A stretch of DNA of 20,880 bases from a virus (IMGVR_UViG_3300029080_000072), one strand, 5' to 3'; shown: positions 1 to 18,866, counted from the stretch's first letter. Numbers and translations: made by a program. Notes: a model not told the origin generated them from the letters alone.

Positions 1-522
1 TCCTGCGCTGGAAGACGCTGACTGAGCCGACGTCGCGGCCTGCCCGGCTGATGTGCTGGCTGCACGTGCTGAGCCTGTAGCATCAGTCGCATGGGTTGCC
101 GCCTCACGGGCTGATGTGCCGGCATCGCTGGCTGACTTCTTCGCGGCTGCCGTGTCCTGTGCCACTGCGGACGCGTTACGCGCCACCTCTTCCACCATCA
201 GTTCAAAGCGGCGCAGTGCCTCCGGACGGGCATCATCCTCCGTCATGGCACCGAGAAAATCATTCAGCGTACCCGGTTGTGAGTCTTCATACACGGTGAT
301 GGTCCCGGCATGCGATGGCGGGAAGCCTTCCACCAACAGAATAACGCTGTACTGACCGTACTCAACGTCCATGCTGTAACGCCCTGCTTCATCCGGATTT
401 TCAGATGCCACCGTGTTCACCACCACCGTGGTGCTGTTACGTTTTGCTTTCAGCTGGATTGTGCAGTTCTGTACTGGTTTACCTGCACCGTCTTTCAGTA
501 CACCTGAAATCTTTACTGCCAT
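1..522 (-). CDS. stf: Side tail fiber protein Stf, N-terminal part (C-terminus runs off the window start)
   Basis: Minus-strand translation from ATG at 522-520 gives MAVKISGVLKDGAGKPVQNCTIQLKAK..., continuing into the Ala/Ser/Thr-rich segment (...ASTSAGQAATSAQSASSSAG) with no stop before position 1; matches remembered lambda Stf N-terminus. Confidence 0.85.
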   Translation of the reverse strand, partial: MAVKISGVLKDGAGKPVQNCTIQLKAKRNSTTVVVNTVASENPDEAGRYSMDVEYGQYSVILLVEGFPPSHAGTITVYEDSQPGTLNDFLGAMTEDDARPEALRRFELMVEEVARNASAVAQDTAAAKKSASDAGTSAREAATHATDATGSARAASTSAGQAATSAQSASSSAG

Positions 523-532
523 ATTCACCCCA

Positions 533-560
533 CAAAAAAGCCCGCCTGAACCGGCGGGCT
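533..560 (-). terminator. Putative rho-independent terminator between lom remnant and stf
   Basis: GC stem gcccgcc/ggcgggc (540-559) followed on the minus strand by a T6 run (complement of 533-538). Confidence 0.5.
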
Positions 561-586
561 GTCATAACACTGTGTTACCTGGCTAA

Positions 587-1124
587 TCAGAACTTATAAC
601 CGACACCCACGATGAAACCGTCAGTGCGCCAGTCGCCACTGCCGGAGCCTTCATAAACAATATCAATGGCCACGGATTCGGTCGGGTTAAACTGCACGCC
701 AGCCCCCCACGCCAGAGACGTGTTGCTGCGGCGACCGTCATCACTTCCGGTCAGCACTTCGTGCGTTTTCCCCTTGTTGTCAGTTACGCGGAGATAATCC
801 CCGGAGAAAGTCGAAATACGGCTGTAAGCCACACCCGCCATCGCATACGCGCTGAACCATTCATTCACGCGCACAGACGGCCCCGCCATCACGCTGAACC
901 AGCGGTTACGCACGGAATCTTCATGCCAGCGGGTATCGCTGTAATGAGTCAGCTGGCGATTCTTGTCTTCTGCATAGCTGAATGACGTCACCATCCCCAG
1001 CGTGTCCGTAAACTCATAACGGTATTTCACGTTAATCCCGTTAAGATCATCGCTGCCGGGAACGTTCGTCGAGGCATGAAGATACCCCGCGCTCAGCGTG
1101 GACTGATGTTCAGACGCCCATGCA
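587..1124 (-). pseudogene. lom: lom (Ail/Lom outer membrane protein) remnant lacking start codon and most of the signal peptide
   Basis: In-frame translation gives ...SGAPAWASEHQSTLSAGYLHASTNVPGSDDLNGINVKYRYEFTDTLGMVTSF...GFIVGVGYKF, matching lambda Lom from the end of its signal peptide to the C-terminus; upstream of about 1124 the sequence switches to terminase A. Confidence 0.8.
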
Positions 1125-1380
1125 GGCGCACCGGATAACCGACACGGGCAGACTTCACCACATTCACCTCACGGATGTAGTCGCTGCCCATCGCATTCAT
1201 GATGGCCCGCTGAAAGGGCAGTGTTTCCCAGCGCCCTTCCTGGTATGCGGATTCTTTCGGGAGATAGTAATTAGCATCCGCCCATTCAACGGCAGTCTGT
1301 GGCTCCGGCCTGAACAGTGAGCGAAGCCCGGCGCGGACAAAATGCCGCAGCATGTTAACCTGACTGTTCGATATATTCAC
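1125..1380 (-). pseudogene. A: Terminase large subunit gpA, N-terminal ~85 codons only, fused out of frame to lom
   Basis: MNISNSQVNMLRHFVRAGLRSLFRPEPQTAVEWADANYYLPKESAYQEGRWETLPFQRAIMNAMGSDYIREVNVVKSARVGY matches the remembered lambda gpA N-terminus; after ARVGY the frame runs ~13 codons into out-of-frame lom sequence and stops at 1093. Confidence 0.85.
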
Positions 1381-1900
1381 TCAGCAACCCCGGTATCAGT
1401 TCATCCAGCGCGGCTGCTTTGTTCATGGCTTTGATGATATCCCGTTTCAGGAAATCAACATGTCGGTTTTCCAGTTCCGGAAAACGCCGCTGCACCGACA
1501 GGGGGATCCCGTCGAGAATACTGGCAATTTCACCTGCAATCCGCGACAGCACGAAAGAACAGAATGCGGTTTCCACCACTTCAGCGGAGTCTCTGGCATT
1601 TTTCAGCTCCTGTGCGTCGGCCTGCGCACGCGTAAGTCGATGGCGTTCGTACTCAATAGTCCCTGGCTGGAGATCTGTCTCGCTGGCCTGTCGCAGTTCT
1701 TCAACCTCCCGGCGCAGCTTTTCGTTCTCAATTTCAGCATCCCTTTCGGTATACCATTTTATGACGGCGGCAGAGTCATAAAGCACCTCATTACCCTTCC
1801 CACCGCCTCGCAGAACGGGCATTCCCTGCTCCTGCCAGTTCTGAATGGTACGGATACTCGCACCGAAAATGTCAGCCAGCTGCTTTTTGTTGACTTCCAT
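1355..1900 (-). CDS. nu1: Terminase small subunit Nu1
   Basis: 181-aa product MEVNKKQLADIFGASIRTIQNWQEQGMPVLRGGGKGNEVLYDSAAVIKWY... is near-identical to lambda Nu1; its 3' end overlaps the A start as in lambda. Confidence 0.92.
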   Translation of the reverse strand: MEVNKKQLADIFGASIRTIQNWQEQGMPVLRGGGKGNEVLYDSAAVIKWYTERDAEIENEKLRREVEELRQASETDLQPGTIEYERHRLTRAQADAQELKNARDSAEVVETAFCSFVLSRIAGEIASILDGIPLSVQRRFPELENRHVDFLKRDIIKAMNKAAALDELIPGLLSEYIEQSG

Positions 1901-2848: not shown

Positions 2849-3142
2849 ATGAAAAAAATGTTGTTTTCTGCCGCTCTGGCAATGCTTATTACAGGATGTG
2901 CTCAACAGACGTTTACTGTTGGAAACAAACCGACAGCAGTAACACCAAAGGAAACCATCACCCATCATTTCTTCGTTTCGGGAATTGGACAGGAGAAAAC
3001 TGTTGATGCAGCCAAAATTTGTGGCGGCGCAGAAAATGTTGTTAAAACAGAAACCCAGCAAACATTCGTAAATGGATTGCTCGGTTTTATTACTTTAGGC
3101 ATTTATACTCCGCTGGAAGCGCGGGTGTATTGCTCACAATAA
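2849..3142 (+). CDS. bor: Bor lipoprotein (serum-resistance lipoprotein)
   Basis: MKKMLFSAALAMLITGCAQQTFTV...GIYTPLEARVYCSQ has a lipobox (LITGC) and matches remembered lambda Bor; AGGA precedes the ATG at 2849; the tracked ORF start at 2801 is an upstream extension. Confidence 0.9.
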   Translation: MKKMLFSAALAMLITGCAQQTFTVGNKPTAVTPKETITHHFFVSGIGQEKTVDAAKICGGAENVVKTETQQTFVNGLLGFITLGIYTPLEARVYCSQ

Positions 3143-4932: not shown

Positions 4933-6015
4933 ATGAAAAAATTAACAGTGGCAATTTCTGCTGTAGCTGCATCAGTACTGATGGCGATGTCTGCTCAGGC
5001 AGCTGAAATTTATAATAAAGACAGTAACAAGCTGGATCTATATGGGAAAGTTAATGCCAAGCACTACTTCTCCTCTAATGATGCAGATGATGGTGATACT
5101 ACTTATGCCCGTCTTGGCTTCAAAGGTGAAACCCAAATCAACGATCAACTGACTGGTTTCGGTCAGTGGGAATATGAATTCAAAGGCAACCGCGCTGAAT
5201 CTCAAGGCTCCTCCAAAGACAAAACCCGTCTTGCATTTGCAGGCCTGAAATTCGGGGACTACGGCTCAATCGATTACGGCCGTAACTACGGTGTAGCATA
5301 TGACATCGGTGCGTGGACTGACGTTCTGCCAGAATTCGGTGGCGATACCTGGACCCAAACAGATGTGTTCATGACTGGTCGCACCACTGGTGTTGCAACT
5401 TATCGTAACAACGACTTCTTTGGTCTGGTTGATGGTCTGAACTTTGCTGCTCAGTATCAGGGTAAAAATGACCGCACTGACGTAACTGAAGCTAATGGTG
5501 ATGGTTTCGGTTTCTCCACTACTTATGAGTATGAAGGATTCGGTGTAGGTGCAACCTATGCTAAATCTGACCGCACTAATAATCAGGTTATCTACGGTAA
5601 CAACAGCCTGAATGCATCTGGTCAAAATGCTGAAGTATGGGCAGCTGGTCTGAAATATGATGCGAACAACATCTATCTGGCTACCACCTATTCTGAAACC
5701 CAGAACATGACTGTTTTTGGTAATAACCATATTGCCAACAAAGCACAAAACTTCGAAGTAGTTGCACAATATCAGTTCGACTTCGGTCTGCGTCCGTCCG
5801 TTGCTTACCTGCAATCTAAAGGAAAAGACTTGGGTGCGTGGGGTGATCAGGACCTGGTTGAATATATTGATGTAGGTGCAACCTATTACTTCAACAAAAA
5901 TATGTCCACTTTTGTTGATTACAAAATCAACCTGATTGATAAGAGCGATTTCACGAAAGCATCTGGCGTTGCTACCGATGATATCGTTGCTGTAGGTATG
6001 GTTTACCAGTTCTAA
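4933..6015 (+). CDS. nmpC: OmpC/OmpF-family general porin (phage-borne NmpC/Lc-like), apparently intact
   Basis: 360 aa with signal peptide [23 protein letters not shown], typical porin beta-strand pattern and C-terminal ...VGMVYQF; matches remembered NmpC/Lc. Confidence 0.9.
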
Positions 6016-8337: not shown

Positions 8338-8967
8338 CTAAAACAAGGATAAACTTTGCCCTGCTCCAGGCGTTGGCTTTACAAATGTTACATCTTTAAT
8401 TCTTTCGCCTAGGAGAAAAAATTTGTCCAAAGATAGCGATGGTATTGTTGCAAACCCATCAGCCCCCTTTTTCCTAGCAACCCCTCTCACGTCCATGAGA
8501 ATTCGCCCTAATACGTTCATACCATAATAGTTACCTTCTGGGTCTTTACTGGCACCCCAGAATTGGTCCTTCTCTGAGTGTTCCACGATGAAATGGTCGC
8601 CTGTACTGTCTAACAGCGCAAAGAACGTATCCCAGTTCTGGCATAATTTTACGCATACACACCACTTCATAATCGAAACTCGATTCTTATCCCATCCTGC
8701 GCGAGTTTTGGATTCAAACGATCTTGCGGTCTGCTTGGCTTCATAGGGGTTTCCTTGAGTAATGATGGCCTTTTGTATATCCGGATAGTCTGGATATCGG
8801 CATGCTTGGTAAAGGATTTCACTTGATTGAATAGGCAACCCATTGATTAACAATGGATATCCTTTAGCCATGTTGGAAAGCCCCCCCCATTTTTCGGTGG
8901 TTTTCCTGAAGGAAACTGTGTTCTGTAGCGGATATAATCTATAGCTCATACCACTCATTATACCCAT
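8338..8967 (-). CDS. NADAR (YbiA/DUF1768-like) domain protein, predicted N-glycosidic/ADP-ribosyl hydrolase
   Basis: Motif pattern GGLSNM ... IQSSEILYQACRY ... IVEHSEKDQFWGA ... G.N.LGRILMDVR parallels E. coli YbiA (FSNF ... TSEHYFQAQKF ... VEHTENDAYWGDG ... GKNRLGYLLMELR); start ambiguous among ATGs at 8967, 8958, 8949, all overlapping the upstream gene. Confidence 0.7.
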   Translation of the reverse strand: MGIMSGMSYRLYPLQNTVSFRKTTEKWGGLSNMAKGYPLLINGLPIQSSEILYQACRYPDYPDIQKAIITQGNPYEAKQTARSFESKTRAGWDKNRVSIMKWCVCVKLCQNWDTFFALLDSTGDHFIVEHSEKDQFWGASKDPEGNYYGMNVLGRILMDVRGVARKKGADGFATIPSLSLDKFFLLGERIKDVTFVKPTPGAGQSLSLF

Positions 8968-9970
8968 TCCGCTTCATTAGTGGATACCAGCAGTCCAATG
9001 CGGGAGCACCTGTTGGTTCATAATCTCCCCACCAAAAAGCCAGCGGCACATTATTCGGGCAATTTCGATAAGTAAATGTTGTTCCCCCAAAACCCAAACC
9101 GTCAAAAGTAGAAAAACCTAGAGGTTTGAGCACCTCACTAGGGGTTTTCCTGTGCAGCAAGATATTAAAGCCGACTTTAGTAAGGATAGATTCGAAACGA
9201 TCCCTTGAGGCTTCATTTCTAAAACTATCAGAAGAGGCATATCCATCTCTGAATACGCCTTTGTAAAGCTCACACTCCTCGAATTTCTCGGGAGTATCTA
9301 CACTATATTTCCTTGGCCAGAAAACACCTGATTGAGCAGAACGACTTTTTCGGTTTTCAACCTCACGCATACCACCATTCTTCACGTGTACAAAAATGTT
9401 TCTATCCTTAAAAATATATTCTAATCGTCTTTTTATATTATAGTCAGATAACGTATGAGATGAAAAAAAATATACATTGAATTTAATATCTCTTAAATTA
9501 AATTTTAAAACAAAATTACTTATCGATTTGATGGCCTTTTCTCCTGAAAACGACACATCATCAATATATACAAATGTATCAAATTTATTTACTTCATCTT
9601 GAGTTGATGATTCAGTAACGATGTTAAATTTGATCCCTACTGTTTCATAAAGAGATTTAAGCAATTCCTTCTGACTAGAACCTTTTTTTTGAATATCTAA
9701 AAAACCTGCATATCTGAAGAATTTCGCGTTCTTTTCACTTCTTGCAATGGCTTTTATTTTTCGTTGATATTGACTTTCGGATAGGTAACCTGCATTAAGT
9801 AGATAAAGCGTTTCATCTAAGATAAATCGTCTATCCTCCACTGCAAATTGCTTAATCCATTTGCTGACATGTTCAGAGTTCATACCTTCAGCCGGAGGAT
9901 ATTTATAATCGCTCAACTTTTCAGCAATTTTATTGATTACTTTTTCACCAGATAAAATATTCGAGGACAT
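8939..9970 (-). CDS. Unassigned 343-aa protein (AT-rich cargo gene); weak PRTase-like DD motif; function unknown
   Basis: Uninterrupted ORF with AGGA 8 nt upstream of the ATG; FVYIDDVSFSGEKA resembles a type-I phosphoribosyltransferase PRPP motif; Trp/Gly-rich C-terminus; no family I recognise. Confidence 0.7.
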   Translation of the reverse strand: MSSNILSGEKVINKIAEKLSDYKYPPAEGMNSEHVSKWIKQFAVEDRRFILDETLYLLNAGYLSESQYQRKIKAIARSEKNAKFFRYAGFLDIQKKGSSQKELLKSLYETVGIKFNIVTESSTQDEVNKFDTFVYIDDVSFSGEKAIKSISNFVLKFNLRDIKFNVYFFSSHTLSDYNIKRRLEYIFKDRNIFVHVKNGGMREVENRKSRSAQSGVFWPRKYSVDTPEKFEECELYKGVFRDGYASSDSFRNEASRDRFESILTKVGFNILLHRKTPSEVLKPLGFSTFDGLGFGGTTFTYRNCPNNVPLAFWWGDYEPTGAPALDCWYPLMKRNGYNEWYEL

Positions 9971-10181
9971 AAAAATTCCTTTTCACAACACAGAATCTAA
10001 AAAATAAGAATACTTTTATTTATTTCAAGTATAGACCGTATATTCAACTACTTTTTTTTATAGTAGGGAGATACCGATCACAATTTTTAGATATCTAATG
10101 TGATGGTTTAATAACCAGCAGTCTTACGTGTTAATTCACGTAAAAAAACTCATCAAACCTTCCTCTTTTCAGTTAATTCTT
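9971..10181 (-). promoter_or_regulatory. AT-rich upstream region of the cargo cassette with a TACGTG-N6-CACGTA palindrome (10125-10142)
   Basis: ~210 bp, very AT-rich, between the methyltransferase stop and the cassette start; the palindrome is followed by an A7 run. Confidence 0.35.
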
Positions 10182-10766
10182 TTAAGAATAAACATCAGTA
10201 ACTCGGGCCGGGCTTAATGCTACGGTTGGCGAATCACACTTGTTTCCCCATACGTCGAAACCGTGGGAGGATTTACGCGCAAAGAGCTCAATACGTGGAA
10301 GATTACCCAGCAACCGAACCAGCATTTCACGCACGCAGTCTGGTTTACGTGAGTGCTCATGTCGCGGCGAGGTGTAGTGCTGGATGATCGAGGCGTCCTG
10401 CTGTGGTGCCCGCTTACCCTTTACCGCGAAAAGACAATCTTCACGGTTCGCCCGGATCAGGTGTCCCATTCCCATCGCCGATTTGTCAGTTTGCTTCGGG
10501 TAGGTTTTATCCCAAGTGAAACCTTTCATTGTGATCAGGCGAAATCCCCAGGCATCGACGACTTTCATCGCCTCGAACGTTTGAGTTGGCAACCACCACA
10601 TCGCCAGCTGGCAGCTTTCTGCAACCCGCTCCCTTACTGGCAGCCAGCAGATATCCTGCACCGTCATAACCAAGTATTTATGCCCGGTGCCACGCTTACC
10701 AGAATTGCATTTATCCTCGTACGTCCAGGGCGGATCCGCTTAGATCAACGTGTATTTCTTGTTCAT
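10182..10766 (-). pseudogene. Dam-like N6-adenine DNA methyltransferase (DPPW motif) interrupted by an in-frame TAA at codon 9
   Basis: Minus strand from ATG 10766 reads MNKKYTLI-TAA-ADPPWTYEDKCNSGKRGTGHKYLVMTVQDICWLP...; the stop (10742-10740) sits where intact homologs, as I remember them, have Tyr in LIYADPPW. Confidence 0.75.
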
Positions 10767-14180: not shown

Positions 14181-14450
14181 ATGAGTGATAAAAAACTTAT
14201 AAAAAAATCAAATAACTGTGTAGATGCATATGCTGATGCATTTGGATATTCATCTTTTGGGGAAGATGACGATCGCTTAGGCTCCATATCTTTCTTTCAG
14301 CATGTTACAGAATGGGGCGCTGATGGTAGTAATGACACTGAAAACGTAAAGTACAACATTGCAACAATTCGCATGACGGAAGATTTAATGCTTAAACTCG
14401 CTGACTTTATTCGCGATCAGCATGATAGAGCTAAAACCAATAAGTCATAA
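14181..14450 (+). CDS. Hypothetical acidic 89-aa protein, first gene of cI-linked cassette
   Basis: ORF with GGGAAAGG Shine-Dalgarno; AT-rich; no family recognised. Confidence 0.55.
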   Translation: MSDKKLIKKSNNCVDAYADAFGYSSFGEDDDRLGSISFFQHVTEWGADGSNDTENVKYNIATIRMTEDLMLKLADFIRDQHDRAKTNKS

Positions 14451-14458
14451 TATTAACA

Positions 14459-14899
14459 ATGAAACACGGTTATTACGAAGCTCCAAACCTAACTGAAAAG
14501 CTTGAACAAGCGGCAAGATCATCATCTTTGCACACTGCAGCATTTTCTCAATCAGCTGGTATGTCTGGCGGTAATGTACCTATGCTACAATCAAGTGGTA
14601 GCGGTGGCTCTGGGAGTAATAATGTGCTTGAATCGAAAGTTGCAAAGCTTGAGTCTGATGTGTCCTATATCCGACGTGACGTTGATGAGCTTAAGACAGA
14701 TGTCAAATCTATCGACAGAAACATGATCGCTGTTCTGGAGCGACTCGATTCAATAAAAGATTCACTAGCCAAAAAACCCTCCATCGATGCTGTCGATAGA
14801 AAGATTTCAGACGCAAAGCTTGCGGTATTGCTTGGTGTTCCAGCAATCATCGCTGCAGGAACAGGTCTTTATAAGCTATCAATGTACTTTTTTCTTTAG
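14459..14899 (+). CDS. Coiled-coil protein with C-terminal transmembrane anchor (possibly XhlA-like), second gene of cI-linked cassette
   Basis: Heptad-like segment LESKVAKLESDVSYIRRDVDELKTDVKSIDRNMIAVLERLDSIKDSL and hydrophobic tail LAVLLGVPAIIAAGTGLYKLSMYFFL; starts 8 nt after the previous stop. Confidence 0.55.
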   Translation: MKHGYYEAPNLTEKLEQAARSSSLHTAAFSQSAGMSGGNVPMLQSSGSGGSGSNNVLESKVAKLESDVSYIRRDVDELKTDVKSIDRNMIAVLERLDSIKDSLAKKPSIDAVDRKISDAKLAVLLGVPAIIAAGTGLYKLSMYFFL

Positions 14900-16820: not shown

Positions 16821-17497
16821 CACCGGACATTATCCTGCAGCGTACCGGGATCGACGTGAGAGCTGTCGAACAGGGAGATGATGCGTGGAACAAATTACGA
16901 CTCGGCGTCATCACGGCTTCAGAAGTTCACAATGTGATAGCAAAACCCCGCTCCGGTAAAAAGTGGCCTGACATGAAAATGTCCTACTTTCACACCCTGC
17001 TGGCTGAGATTTGCACCGGTGTGGCTCCGGAAGTTAACGCTAAGGCGCTGGCCTGGGGAAAACAGTACGAGAATGACGCCAGAGCCCTGTTTGAGTTTAC
17101 TTCCGGCGTGAATGTTACTGAATCCCCGATCATCTATCGCGACGAAAGTATGCGCACCGCCTGCTCTCCCGATGGTTTATGCAGTGACGGCAACGGCCTT
17201 GAGCTGAAATGCCCGTTTACCTCCCGGGATTTCATGAAGTTCCGGCTCGGTGGTTTCGAGGCCATAAAGTCGGCTTACATGGCCCAGGTGCAGTACAGCA
17301 TGTGGGTGACACGAAAAGATGCCTGGTACTTTGCCAACTATGACCCGCGTATGAAGCGTGAAGGACTGCATTATGTCGTGGTTGAGCGGGATGAAAAGTA
17401 CATGGCGAGTTTTGACGAGATGGTGCCGGAGTTCATCGAAAAAATGGACGAGGCACTGGCTGAAATTGGTTTTGTATTTGGGGAGCAATGGCGATGA
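16817..17497 (+). CDS. exo: Lambda exonuclease (Red-alpha)
   Basis: 226 aa, [54 protein letters not shown]..., essentially identical to lambda Exo. Confidence 0.95.
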
Positions 17498-17652
17498 CGC
17501 ATCCTCACGATAATATCCGGGTAGGCGCGATCACTTTCGTCTACTCCATTACAAAGCGAGGCTGGGTATTTCCCGGCCTTTCTGTTATCAGAAATCCACT
17601 GAAAGCACAGCGGCTGGCTGAGAAGATAAATAATAAACAGGAGGATATATGA
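17494..17652 (+). CDS. Unannotated 52-aa micro-ORF translationally coupled between exo and the DGQHR gene
   Basis: ATG overlaps the exo stop (ATGA at 17494-17497) and its TGA overlaps the DGQHR ATG (ATGA at 17649-17652); product [52 protein letters not shown]; below the ORF-track size cutoff. Confidence 0.4.
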
Positions 17653-18713
17653 GTCAGGTTGGTAATCATTCATTCGAATTTCCGGCATCGCAAGGTGTAC
17701 AGGGTGGTACTGTTACACTCTTCCTTACCATACCAGGAAGATCGCTGGCTCGTTTCCTCGCTTCAGATAATTACGGCCATACACTGGAACGCTCTCAGCG
17801 AGAAATTAATCCAAATCGAGTACGAAAATTTTTAAATTATCTCACTAACGCAGACTCAAGAAATGAGTCTTTTATCATTCCCCCTCTCGTAGGTAACTGT
17901 GATTCGAATATAGAATTTGTACCGTTTGGCAACACAAATGTTGGTATAGCCAGAATTCCCCTCGACGCCGAAATAAAACTTTTTGATGGCCAACATCGTG
18001 CAGCTGGCATTGAGATATTTTGCCGAAGTTCCCCATCAACGCTCATGGTTCCCATGATGCTTACAATGAATCTGCCGCTAAAAACCCGGCAGCAGTTCTT
18101 TTCGGACATAAATAACAACGTTTCTAAGCCATCAGCGACCATCAATATGGCGTATAACGGCCGGGATGATATTGCTCAGGGAATGATATCCTTCCTGACC
18201 CAACATACTGTATTTGCCGATATAACCGATTTTGAACACAACGTAGTGCCATTAAAAAGTAATATGTGGGTGAGTTTCAAGGCACTCACTGATGCAACGT
18301 CAAAGTTTGCTAGGAACGGCAATCAACAACTTGAAATGGGATATATAGAATCTGTCTGGGAGGCATGGATTACACTAACTCAGATTGACTCAATCCGACA
18401 TGGTGTACACCACGCTACGTACAAGCGCGATTATATTCAGTTCCATGGAGTAATGATTAACGCTTTCGGTTTTGCGGTTCAACAGATGATGGTTAATCAT
18501 TCCATCGCAGAAATAACTTCTATGATCGAAAAACTCTGTGCAACTACCAGCTCTGCAGAAAGAGAGGATTTTTTTCTGATGGATAACTGGGCGGGGATCT
18601 GCACGAAAGCCAGCCAGGAAAAACTATCGGTTATTGCCAATGTGGCAGCGCAGAAAGCAGCAGCAAACAGACTGATACAAGCTTTTACCAAAGGAAGTCT
18701 GGAAACAACTTAA
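17649..18713 (+). CDS. DGQHR-domain (DndB-like, ParB/Srx-fold) protein
   Basis: Contains the literal motif FDGQHRAAGIE preceded by a region resembling what I recall of DndB-like proteins; AGGAGG 5 nt upstream of the ATG. Confidence 0.7.
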   Translation: MSQVGNHSFEFPASQGVQGGTVTLFLTIPGRSLARFLASDNYGHTLERSQREINPNRVRKFLNYLTNADSRNESFIIPPLVGNCDSNIEFVPFGNTNVGIARIPLDAEIKLFDGQHRAAGIEIFCRSSPSTLMVPMMLTMNLPLKTRQQFFSDINNNVSKPSATINMAYNGRDDIAQGMISFLTQHTVFADITDFEHNVVPLKSNMWVSFKALTDATSKFARNGNQQLEMGYIESVWEAWITLTQIDSIRHGVHHATYKRDYIQFHGVMINAFGFAVQQMMVNHSIAEITSMIEKLCATTSSAEREDFFLMDNWAGICTKASQEKLSVIANVAAQKAAANRLIQAFTKGSLETT

Positions 18714-18790
18714 TGAATCAACATTGTCTCATATCAGCATGCTGTACGGCGTCTTTAAGGAACGGTGAGCATGAAAAACAAAATCATCAT

Positions 18791-18812
18791 GGAGCTACAG
18801 GCTCCTTTTTTA
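18791..18812 (+). terminator. Rho-independent terminator after the DGQHR gene
   Basis: ggagc-tacag-gctcc hairpin followed by tttttt. Confidence 0.55.
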
Positions 18813-18866
18813 TTATTCGCATTCACCCTCAAGCGTATTAACCAACAATTCAGGGATTAATGAAAG

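What the first reader, a model, noticed from the sequence alone, without database searches (positions are those of the whole stretch)
17649..18713. DGQHR-domain (DndB-like) protein in the non-essential region between exo and xis
The literal FDGQHRAAGIE motif sits in a context typical of DndB-like ParB/Srx-fold proteins. In bacteria these are tied to DNA phosphorothioation (Dnd) or 7-deazaguanine (Dpd) modification systems, yet here it is a solo gene on a phage. A solo phage DndB-like protein could interact with modified-DNA-based host defenses or act as a DNA-binding nuclease/regulator. This region corresponds to the lambda ea/b accessory block.
Basis: partly seen in the sequence, partly recalled or inferred. 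Interest (0 to 1): 0.6.

Follow-up and report, generated by a model that had tools for sequence, protein, structure and literature searches.

The report
Solo DndB-like gene in prophage
A defective lambda-like prophage of E. coli carries a stand-alone copy of a DNA-binding NTPase-type protein (DGQHR/DndB family) that normally belongs to DNA-sulfur modification systems; its relatives sit, also alone, in the first-expressed regions of other phages and of resistance plasmids, next to anti-restriction genes, so it may help incoming DNA establish itself, but its function is untested.

Summary
ORF 17649-18713 (+) encodes a 354-aa protein with FDGQHRAAGIE at residues 112-122. It passes the DGQHR-domain model (189 bits, cutoff 58.9) and Pfam DndB (E=3e-46).

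It is not DndB proper. It scores 108.6 against the 328-bit DndB equivalog cutoff, and no dnd or dpd gene is annotated within 49 kb.

The window is a defective lambdoid prophage at icd (100% identical to E. coli E94). The gene is a precise one-gene cassette in the exo-xis slot: gam-bet-exo-DUF1317-DGQHR-TraR/DksA-DUF4222-xis-int. It has its own Shine-Dalgarno and an ATGA overlap with DUF1317. It occurs in 284 of 5426 complete E. coli genomes.

Orthologues (52-73% identical) lie in the same early-left position of Salmonella, Klebsiella, Serratia and Tatumella prophages. Paralogues (30-42% identical, also solo) lie in IncL/M, IncN-like, IncP-like and other plasmids, beside ArdA, ArdB/KlcA, PsiA and SSB genes.

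An apparent link to DNA methyltransferases failed a control.

Best guess (about 0.4): an early-made, NTP-gated DNA-binding protein that aids establishment or anti-defence. RefSeq already annotates the domain, and no experimental function was found in the paper library searched. Moderate interest.

The parts
17649..18713 (+). CDS of the 354-aa solo DGQHR-domain (DndB-family) protein. It has an N-terminal ParB/Srx-like domain of about 145 residues followed by a helical domain.
17982..18014 (+). Codons for FDGQHRAAGIE (aa 112-122). D113, G114, Q115, H116 and R117 sit at a strand-to-helix turn, which is the position of the GxxR nucleotide-binding motif in ParB.
   Evidence: Translation. Secondary structure (strand 109-113, helix 115-127). 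DGQHR is invariant in 128 family representatives. The ParB GxxR analogy is from PMC10164549.
17639..17652 (+). Shine-Dalgarno AGGAGG (17639-17644), then ATGA (17649-17652), in which the DGQHR start codon overlaps the stop codon of the upstream DUF1317 gene. This implies co-transcription and probably coupled translation with the early-left operon.
   Evidence: Sequence read. ORF coordinates. No sigma-70-like promoter was found on the + strand immediately upstream.
17640..18732 (+). The one-gene cassette. Compared with phage 4A7, which has the same exo, DUF1317, zinc-finger, xis and int backbone, identity breaks about 10 bp before the ATG and resumes 20 bp after the stop codon.
   Evidence: Pairwise alignment. 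Megablast against phages covers only the flanks (49% of the query). Annotation of 4A7.
17488..17652 (+). Upstream DUF1317 gene (54 aa). It is a frequent but not obligatory neighbour, and it also occurs without DGQHR.
   Evidence: Pfam PF07026, E=4e-31. It is present before DGQHR in phage SPN1S and present without DGQHR in 4A7.
18791..18815 (+). Terminator-like hairpin GGAGCTACAGGCTCC followed by a T-run, downstream of the gene. It belongs to the shared backbone, not to the cassette.
   Evidence: Scan. The identical sequence is present in phage 4A7.

Best explanation
The gene encodes a stand-alone member of the DGQHR (DndB-like) branch of the ParB/Srx superfamily. By analogy with relatives, it is a nucleotide-gated DNA-binding protein.

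It is carried as exchangeable cargo in the early-left (exo-xis) operon of a lambdoid prophage. It is probably made only when that operon is on, that is, early after infection or induction, and not in the quiescent lysogen.

Its most likely role is to help the incoming or induced element establish itself. It would do this by binding DNA and either shielding it or interfering with host DNA-targeting functions such as restriction, recombination or SOS. This is an anti-defence or establishment role in the broad sense. It is not part of a DNA phosphorothioation or deazaguanine modification system.

Shown: the family and fold; the solo status; the cassette nature; the operon position; and the recurrence of solo relatives in phage early regions and in plasmid leading or control regions beside anti-restriction genes.

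Inferred: NTP binding, DNA binding, expression timing and the biological role.
For: Family and fold:
- TIGR03187 at 189 bits and Pfam DndB.
- Family-wide invariant residues R48, Q50, R51, D113-G-Q-H-R117, F151, D153, N155 and E196 are all kept in this protein.
- A DndB-like protein binds ATP and GTP (PMC12704722). DndB is a DNA-binding autorepressor (PMC4507180).

Not Dnd or Dpd:
- It scores below the DndB equivalog cutoff.
- No partner genes are annotated in 49 kb.

Early-operon position:
- It is on the same strand as gam-bet-exo...xis-int, with an ATGA overlap, its own Shine-Dalgarno and no promoter hit.
- Exo-xis genes are expressed at the earliest lytic stage (PMC8614690 abstract).

Same slot in other temperate phages:
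- SPN1S, a Klebsiella phage, and Serratia, Tatumella and Gilliamella prophages, next to RecE/RecT, RdgC and Rv2179c-like exonuclease genes.

Solo paralogues on plasmids beside anti-defence genes:
- IncL/M: in one same-strand gene run with antirestriction, ssb and Hha genes that ends at mobA and the relaxase, about the 15th ORF from mobA, which I take as the leading region. About 1000 plasmids in all carry a homologue.
- IncN-like: inserted directly upstream of ardB-ardR (compare PMC3347995).
- IncP-like Aeromonas plasmid: between an antirestriction gene with kleE and the TrfB-related, ParA and ParB family genes.
- Buttiauxella, Dryocola and Pseudescherichia elements: ArdA-DGQHR-PsiA-Antirestrict.
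- Leading regions are enriched in anti-defence genes within the first 30 ORFs (PMC11541004).
Against: - There is no experimental datum for any solo DGQHR protein.
- Co-location with anti-restriction genes was seen in 4 of 7 plasmid backbones inspected by hand, without a formal background model.
- The paper searches made here on pOXA-48 and DndB found no role for the homologue. The pOXA-48 Tn-seq paper returned nothing about it for the search terms used. In many 63.6-kb plasmids, which I take to be pOXA-48-type from their size, hosts and IncL/M-like homologue, the homologue is split by IS1. It is therefore dispensable there.
- The only experimentally shown role of a DGQHR protein (DndB) is transcriptional repression, which fits the rival 'regulator' reading equally well.
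- The host prophage here is defective, so in this genome the gene may do nothing at all.
Confidence: 0.4

Rival explanations
1. It is a transcriptional regulator of the element itself, acting like DndB as an NTP-modulated repressor. It would tune early or establishment genes, or the lysis-lysogeny decision, as other exo-xis genes do.
For: - DndB is an autorepressor that binds palindromes (PMC4507180).
- Exo-xis genes influence lysogenisation and induction (PMC3824215 and PMC7093339 abstracts).
- On plasmids the paralogue often lies next to TrfB-related DNA-binding protein genes. The ardK slot of IncN plasmid N3 (PMC3347995) suggests these are KorA/ArdK-type regulators.
- In one phage group the gene travels with an HTH/Zn protein: 6 of 6 DGQHR-positive loci against 0 of 58 DGQHR-negative loci.
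Against: - In phages there is no intergenic region or promoter upstream of the gene to autoregulate.
- The window has a single, chance-level match to the DndB operator pattern (11 of 100 shuffles give at least one).
- No HTH domain is detected in the protein.
- A pure regulator would not be expected as exchangeable cargo across unrelated backbones.
Confidence: 0.25
2. It is a prophage-borne defence or superinfection-exclusion gene that benefits the lysogen. It would act as a ParB/DUF262-like sensor of foreign or modified DNA.
For: - It is accessory cargo in a variable slot.
- It is kept intact at 99% identity or more in 284 E. coli genomes, including a heavily eroded remnant.
- It is distantly fold-related to the N-domains of the defence proteins BrxU and SspE.
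- Its only PADLOC match is a defence-system component, DndB.
Against: - It has no promoter of its own and is translationally coupled to the early-left operon, which is expected to be repressed in the lysogen.
- It has no effector or nuclease domain, and H197 of 'EH' is not conserved in the family.
- Its relatives sit among anti-defence, not defence, genes on plasmids.
Confidence: 0.12
3. It is a helper or controller of a DNA-modifying enzyme, either a phage orphan methyltransferase or the host Dnd machinery. This would be analogous to DpdB, whose ATPase is needed for DpdA, or to DndB controlling dndCDE.
For: - In 10 of 20 orthologue clusters, a DNA methyltransferase from one of five families lies 1-2 genes downstream.
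- The same holds in SPN1S and in a Vibrio phage.
- A Pseudoalteromonas phage homologue lies next to PAPS-reductase and C5-methylase genes.
- There is a DpdB precedent (PMC10164549).
Against: - The control failed. In the same phage group, 52 of 58 loci without DGQHR also have a methyltransferase in that slot, so the link is positional.
- The window clade has no adjacent methyltransferase in 0 of 29 loci.
- The prophage's only methyltransferase is a pseudogene about 7 kb away.
- No dnd genes are nearby.
Confidence: 0.08
4. In this genome it is functionless baggage: an intact but unused gene of a decaying prophage.
For: The prophage lacks head and tail genes and carries truncated terminase and Lom genes and a methyltransferase pseudogene. 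Other copies sit in even smaller remnants.
Against: - The ORF is intact in 282 of 284 genomes at 99% identity or more.
- Orthologues at 52-73% identity keep about 90 invariant positions, which indicates purifying selection in the family.
Confidence: 0.1

Closest known systems
DndB (regulator of the dndBCDE DNA phosphorothioation operon; TIGR03233 / PF14072)
   Same: It shares the DGQHR domain over about 300 residues (E=3e-31 to the DndB model). It has the same invariant motifs and the same predicted layout of a ParB/Srx N-domain plus a helical domain.
   Different: It scores 108.6 bits against the 328-bit equivalog cutoff. It has no dndC, dndD or dndE (or dndFGH) nearby. It is encoded on a prophage within an early operon, not at the head of a modification operon. 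The C-terminal 50 or so residues are unrelated.
DpdB (ParB-like ATPase of the Dpd 7-deazaguanine system)
   Different: DpdB carries DGQQR rather than DGQHR. No dpdA or dpdC is present. No NCBIfam or Pfam hit other than the DGQHR and DndB models was returned.
Solo DGQHR proteins of conjugative plasmids (IncL/M including likely pOXA-48-type plasmids, an IncN-like Shigella plasmid, an IncP-like Aeromonas plasmid, Buttiauxella-type elements)
   Same: They are 30-42% identical over almost the full length, consist of a single DndB domain, stand alone, and share the orientation of the early or leading-region genes.
   Different: They carry 70-190 extra residues (C-terminal in most, N-terminal in the Pseudomonas protein) with no Pfam match. 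They are plasmid-borne rather than phage-borne. They are equally uncharacterised.
ParB-CTPase family (ParB, Noc, KorB, PadC)
   Same: The fold of the N-terminal domain matches, and the conserved Gxx(H)R motif sits at the same strand-to-helix turn.
   Different: There is no sequence-level match to ParBc. No ParA partner and no ParB-type HTH domain were detected, and no parS site was looked for. Nucleotide preference is unknown.
DUF262/GmrSD-type proteins (BrxU, SspE)
   Different: There is no DUF1524 His-Me nuclease domain, and the clade's EH dipeptide is not conserved in the family.

Membership tests
DGQHR-domain proteins (TIGR03187) | Score above the curated cutoff over the full domain, with the DGQHR motif present | tested here: met
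   189.4 bits against a cutoff of 58.85, covering profile positions 1-276 of 276. The motif is at aa 113-117.
DndB of Dnd phosphorothioation systems | Score above the TIGR03233 equivalog cutoff | tested here: not met
   108.6 bits against a cutoff of 328.
DndB of Dnd phosphorothioation systems | Genomic linkage to dndC, dndD and dndE (with or without dndFGH) | tested here: not met
   None is annotated in the 49-kb E94 region that contains the window. None was found in the orthologous or paralogous loci examined.
DndB of Dnd phosphorothioation systems | Binds a palindromic operator at its own promoter | tested here: inconclusive
   No upstream intergenic region exists, because of the ATGA overlap. 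The single TACG-N10-CGTA match in the window is at chance level. The operator of this clade is unknown.
DpdB of Dpd systems | DGQQR motif and linkage to dpdA and dpdC | tested here: not met
   The motif here is DGQHR. No TGT-like or DUF328 gene is annotated nearby. DpdB features are taken from PMC10164549.
ParB/Srx superfamily | ParB/Srx fold in the N-terminal domain | tested here: met
ParB/Srx superfamily | Nucleotide binding or hydrolysis | not testable with these tools
   This is inferred only, from motif conservation and from ATP/GTP binding by one DndB-like protein (PMC12704722).
GmrSD / DUF262-DUF1524 Type IV restriction enzymes | C-terminal DUF1524 His-Me finger nuclease motif ((D/E)HxxP) | tested here: not met
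   There is no Pfam hit. 'EHNVVP' has different spacing, and H197 is K, R or N in most family representatives.
Anti-restriction / anti-defence proteins (ArdA, ArdB/KlcA, etc.) | Homology to a known anti-defence family | tested here: not met
   No such Pfam or PHROG hit was found. Only co-location of paralogues with ArdA, ArdB, ArdR and PsiA genes was seen.
Anti-restriction / anti-defence proteins | Relieves a host defence in vivo | not testable with these tools
   This requires plating or conjugation assays.
Phage morons (autonomously expressed lysogenic-conversion cargo) | Own promoter and terminator flanking the cargo gene | tested here: not met
   No promoter-like site lies upstream on the + strand. 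The downstream hairpin belongs to the shared backbone.

The most novel reading that the evidence does not exclude
Stand-alone DGQHR proteins form an unrecognised, widespread class of establishment or anti-defence factors of mobile elements. They occur in temperate-phage early operons and in the leading regions of IncL/M, IncN-like and other plasmids. Under this reading they are NTP-gated ParB-like DNA clamps, descended from the regulators of DNA-modification systems, that shield entering DNA or disarm DNA-targeting host barriers. Those barriers might include the modification-dependent Dnd, Ssp and Dpd systems from which the fold derives.
Probability: 0.25. Interest if true: 0.75.

Novelty: new variant of a known kind. 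Interest (0 to 1): 0.45.

Why it matters
If the solo DGQHR proteins do aid establishment, they would add a new protein fold and mechanism to the anti-defence repertoire of phages and of clinically important plasmids. A homologue was found on about 1000 plasmids, mostly conjugative ones of Klebsiella, Enterobacter and E. coli, including IncL/M backbones.

They would also show how a regulator or ATPase of a host DNA-modification defence system was co-opted by mobile elements.

If instead the protein is a regulator, it would add a ParB-like switch to the poorly understood exo-xis region, which biases the lysis-lysogeny decisions of lambdoid and Stx phages.

As it stands the finding is a correct domain annotation of a gene of unknown function, and RefSeq already labels it that way.

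Tried and rejected
1. Methyltransferase partnership. Half of the orthologue clusters have a DNA methyltransferase (MT-A70, Dam PF05869, N6_N4, C5 or D12) one or two genes downstream. I rejected this link after a control. In loci anchored on the same upstream gene (c11) but lacking DGQHR, 52 of 58 also carry a methyltransferase there.

2. Cryptic His-Me nuclease. The clade-invariant 'DFEHNVVP' resembles the EHxxP motif of SspE and DUF1524. However, H197 is K, R or N in most of 128 family representatives, and the spacing differs.

3. DndB-type operator. There is one TACG-N10-CGTA site in the window (10125-10142), and 11 of 100 shuffles do as well. No notable inverted repeats flank the gene.

4. 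Moron structure. There is no upstream promoter, and the downstream terminator-like hairpin is backbone sequence shared with phage 4A7.

5. Solved-structure relatives by sequence. None was found with the single sequence or with a 29-sequence profile.

6. BFVD fold search. It gave only low-TM matches to 'DNA-sulfur modification-associated', GmrSD-N and ParB-like viral proteins and added nothing.

7. Literature. No paper was found on a solo phage or plasmid DGQHR protein. CcgA of IncN plasmids is not this protein: it is 60 or 107 aa in plasmid N3.

8. A conserved partner gene. DUF1317 and the TraR/DksA zinc finger also occur without DGQHR. Only in one Klebsiella/Enterobacter-type phage group does an HTH/Zn protein (c12/c46) strictly co-occur with it, and that protein is absent from the window.

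Full report
**Observation.**
The window has a single long ORF at 17649-18713 on the + strand (354 aa, ATG start). Its translation contains KLFDGQHRAAGIEIF, so the quoted motif FDGQHRAAGIE is residues 112-122 (nt 17982-18014).

Profile searches leave no doubt about the family:
- NCBIfam TIGR03187 'DGQHR domain': 189.4 bits against a cutoff of 58.85, over the whole 276-position model.
- Pfam DndB PF14072: E=3e-46.
- PADLOC DndB: E=1.6e-37.
- PHROG 7901, a phage protein family of unknown function: E=1e-214, end to end.

The protein does not reach the curated DndB equivalog cutoff (108.6 vs 328 bits). It is therefore a DGQHR-domain paralogue and not DndB itself.

**Where it sits.**
The whole window is 100% identical to E. 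coli E94. There, RefSeq annotates a defective lambdoid prophage integrated next to icd. The terminase and Lom genes are truncated, head and tail genes are missing, and a methyltransferase is a pseudogene.

The local gene order is gam, bet, lambda-type exonuclease, DUF1317, DGQHR, TraR/DksA zinc finger, DUF4222, excisionase, integrase. Pfam confirms the small neighbours. No dnd or dpd gene is annotated in the 49 kb examined.

The start codon overlaps the DUF1317 stop (ATGA at 17649-17652) and is preceded by AGGAGG. No promoter-like site lies just upstream on that strand. I therefore infer that the gene is transcribed with the early-left operon. In lambda and Stx phages this region (exo-xis) is dispensable, is expressed at the earliest lytic stage, and biases the lysis-lysogeny decision (abstracts of PMC8614690 and PMC3824215).

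**It is a one-gene cassette.**
Megablast against 50,697 phage genomes matches only the flanks (49% of a 2.1-kb query). Phage 4A7 has the same exo, DUF1317, zinc finger, DUF4222, xis and int genes, but carries DUF1382 and two small ORFs in this slot.

A pairwise alignment shows identity breaking about 10 bp before the ATG and resuming 20 bp after the stop codon. The terminator-like hairpin at 18791-18805 belongs to the shared backbone.

The cassette is present at 99% identity or more in 284 of 5426 complete E. coli genomes, once per genome as a rule. One of these is a much smaller prophage remnant. Among 41 viral contigs anchored on the same exonuclease, only one carries it. It is accessory cargo and not a lambdoid core gene.

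**Relatives.**
Orthologues 52-73% identical occur across Enterobacterales. They keep about 90 invariant positions, including SQRE, FIIPPLVGNC, FDGQHR, QFFSDINNNVSKP, TDFEHN and YKRDYIQFH.

In phages and prophages they occupy the same place: the early-left operon, downstream of recombination genes and upstream of the integrase.
- Salmonella SPN1S (after DUF1317) and a Klebsiella phage.
- Serratia and Tatumella prophages, next to Rv2179c-like exonuclease and RdgC genes.
- A 30%-identical Gilliamella prophage copy, again with RdgC and Rv2179c-like genes.

An exhaustive HMMER scan of 1.84 billion representatives found only 591 clusters at E<=1e-3. Of these, only about a dozen share at least 38% identity over the full length.

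**Plasmid paralogues.**
tblastn found homologues on 1071 plasmids, 885 of them conjugative. All examined copies have a single DndB domain, stand alone, and carry extra tails with no Pfam match. Their neighbourhoods are telling:
- **IncL/M.** The gene lies in a uniformly oriented array with an antirestriction gene, ssb, Hha, DUF1380 and DUF4942. It is about 15 ORFs from mobA and the relaxase.
- **IncN-like Shigella plasmid.** The gene lies between mucAB and ardB-ardR. In plasmid N3 this point has nothing between mucA and ardB (PMC3347995).
- **IncP-like Aeromonas plasmid.** The gene lies between an antirestriction gene with kleE and the TrfB-related, ParA and ParB family genes, and PGAP even names it 'DndB'.
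- **Buttiauxella, Dryocola and Pseudescherichia elements.** The order is ArdA, DGQHR, PsiA..., Antirestrict. The DGQHR gene thus sits directly upstream of psiA, where (from my own knowledge of F-like plasmids) psiB normally lies.
- **Three other backbones.** These place it near ParAB, TrfB-like, TopoIII or H-NS genes.

In many 63.6-kb plasmids the gene is split by IS1. The gene is therefore dispensable for that plasmid in its current hosts. The pOXA-48 Tn-seq study returned nothing about it for the search terms I used.

**Structure.**
AlphaFold2 with a 29-sequence alignment gave a moderate model (pLDDT 77.5, pTM 0.53). It has a mixed alpha/beta N-terminal domain of about 145 residues followed by a helical domain.

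DGQHR sits at a strand-to-helix turn (strand 109-113, helix 115-127). This is the position of the nucleotide-binding GxxR motif of ParB.

Across 128 family representatives, the following are essentially invariant, and all are present here: R48, Q50, R51, D113-G-Q-H-R117, F151, D153, N155, E196, a basic residue at position 259 (R or K; K in this protein) and H266 (less strictly conserved). The two lowest-confidence loops (residues 39-51 and 154-170) carry invariant residues, which suggests ligand-induced ordering (inference).

Published biochemistry on relatives:
- DndB is a DNA-binding autorepressor of dndBCDE (PMC4507180), reported to be ATP-modulated.
- A DndB-like protein binds ATP and GTP (PMC12704722).
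- DpdB is a ParB-like ATPase needed for DpdA to insert preQ0 into DNA.

**Tests of specific ideas.**
- **A methyltransferase partner.** In 80 IMG/VR loci (20 clusters at 95% identity), 10 clusters have a DNA methyltransferase of five different families one or two genes downstream. This looked like a DpdB-style partnership. However, in loci of the same phage group anchored on the upstream gene c11, 52 of 58 lacking DGQHR also have a methyltransferase there. The association is positional, and I reject it. None of the 29 window-clade loci has one.
- **A co-travelling HTH protein.** The same control revealed that a small HTH/Zn protein (c12/c46) occurs in 6 of 6 DGQHR-positive and 0 of 58 DGQHR-negative loci. 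In that phage group the cargo is therefore a two-gene unit. The window has no such gene.
- **A hidden His-Me nuclease.** The 'EHNVVP' motif is not supported, because H197 is not conserved in the family.
- **The S. enterica DndB operator pattern.** It occurs once in the window, at chance level.

**Interpretation.**
What is shown:
- This is a genuine, conserved, stand-alone DGQHR/DndB-family ParB/Srx protein.
- It is carried as exchangeable cargo in the early-left operon of a lambdoid prophage.
- Its relatives recur, also alone, in the early regions of other temperate phages and in the leading or control regions of several unrelated plasmid backbones, beside ArdA, ArdB/KlcA, PsiA and SSB genes.

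What I infer: it is an NTP-gated DNA-binding protein, made early, that helps the element establish itself. This could be by anti-restriction, DNA shielding, or modulation of host recombination and SOS. My confidence is about 0.4.

The rivals, in order:
- The main rival (0.25) is that it is a DndB/KorB-like regulator of the element's own early genes.
- A lysogen-protecting defence role (0.12) is disfavoured by the operon position and the lack of an effector domain.
- A modification-helper role (0.08) failed its control.
- In this defective prophage the gene may simply be idle (0.1).

**Novelty and verdict.**
The domain call is correct, and RefSeq already makes it ('DGQHR domain-containing protein'). 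No paper in the searched library addresses solo phage or plasmid DGQHR proteins. I found no experimental function for this clade, which PHROGs also lists as unknown.

I rate it a new variant of a known kind: a DndB-family protein uncoupled from DNA modification and resident in the early or leading regions of mobile elements. Interest is moderate (0.45). Its suggestion of interplay with modification-based defences remains an untested hypothesis, and this work gives it contextual support but no direct support.

Noticed in passing
window 1-1400 (and L002 11000-15400): The prophage is defective. A terminase large-subunit fragment abuts a truncated Lom gene and a tail-fibre gene, and no head or tail morphogenesis genes lie between them (RefSeq annotation of the identical E94 region).
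   Followed up: partly
window 8338-9970 (- strand): A low-GC (31-38%) gene pair in the nin region is annotated as phosphoribosyltransferase-like protein plus NADAR family protein. It may be defence or anti-defence cargo, since from my own knowledge NADAR enzymes reverse ADP-ribosylation. It was not examined.
   Followed up: no
window 10125-10142: TACGTGTTAATTCACGTA lies in the intergenic region upstream of the PRTase-like/NADAR pair. It is the only window match to the S. enterica DndB operator pattern TACG-N10-CGTA, and 11 of 100 shuffles give at least one match, so it is at chance level.
   Followed up: yes
window 10182-10766 (- strand): An MT-A70 family DNA methyltransferase gene with an internal stop, annotated as a pseudogene. 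It is the prophage's only methyltransferase.
   Followed up: partly
window 4933-6015 (+) and 2849-3142 (+): A prophage-borne porin annotated OmpC lies between the lysis cassette and the Q-like antiterminator. An Iss/Bor-type serum-survival lipoprotein gene is also present.
   Followed up: no
window 14181-14899 (+): Two hypothetical ORFs (89 and 146 aa) directly follow the cI-like S24 repressor on the same strand, in the position that rexAB holds in lambda. They are candidate lysogen-expressed genes.
   Followed up: no
L051-L080 type IMG/VR loci (e.g. L077 4899-5363; L055 6046-6585): A small protein with Myb/GcrA-like HTH repeats, with or without a Cys-rich tail (clusters c12/c46), follows DGQHR in 6 of 6 DGQHR-positive and 0 of 58 DGQHR-negative loci of one phage group. 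This indicates a two-gene cassette there.
   Followed up: partly
L011 3876-7611; L279 4496-7137: Long (about 540 aa) DGQHR proteins are paired with a YejK/NdpA nucleoid-associated protein gene in both a Vibrio temperate phage and a Pseudomonas aeruginosa plasmid.
   Followed up: no
L266 6744-11478 (also L269, L271): In Buttiauxella, Dryocola and Pseudescherichia elements the order is ArdA, DGQHR, PsiA..., Antirestrict. The DGQHR gene sits directly upstream of psiA, where (from my own knowledge of F-like plasmids) psiB normally lies.
   Followed up: partly
plasmid hits H110-H126 (63.6-kb plasmids, likely pOXA-48-type): The plasmid DGQHR homologue is interrupted by IS1 in this widespread plasmid lineage, whereas related IncL/M plasmids keep it intact. 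I infer the pOXA-48 type from size and hosts; it was not typed.
   Followed up: no
L094 1935-6553: In Pseudoalteromonas phage KB12-38 a DndB-like gene lies among two PAPS-reductase-like genes and a C5 DNA methylase gene. This may be a phage-borne DNA-modification module, unlike the solo enterobacterial copies.
   Followed up: no
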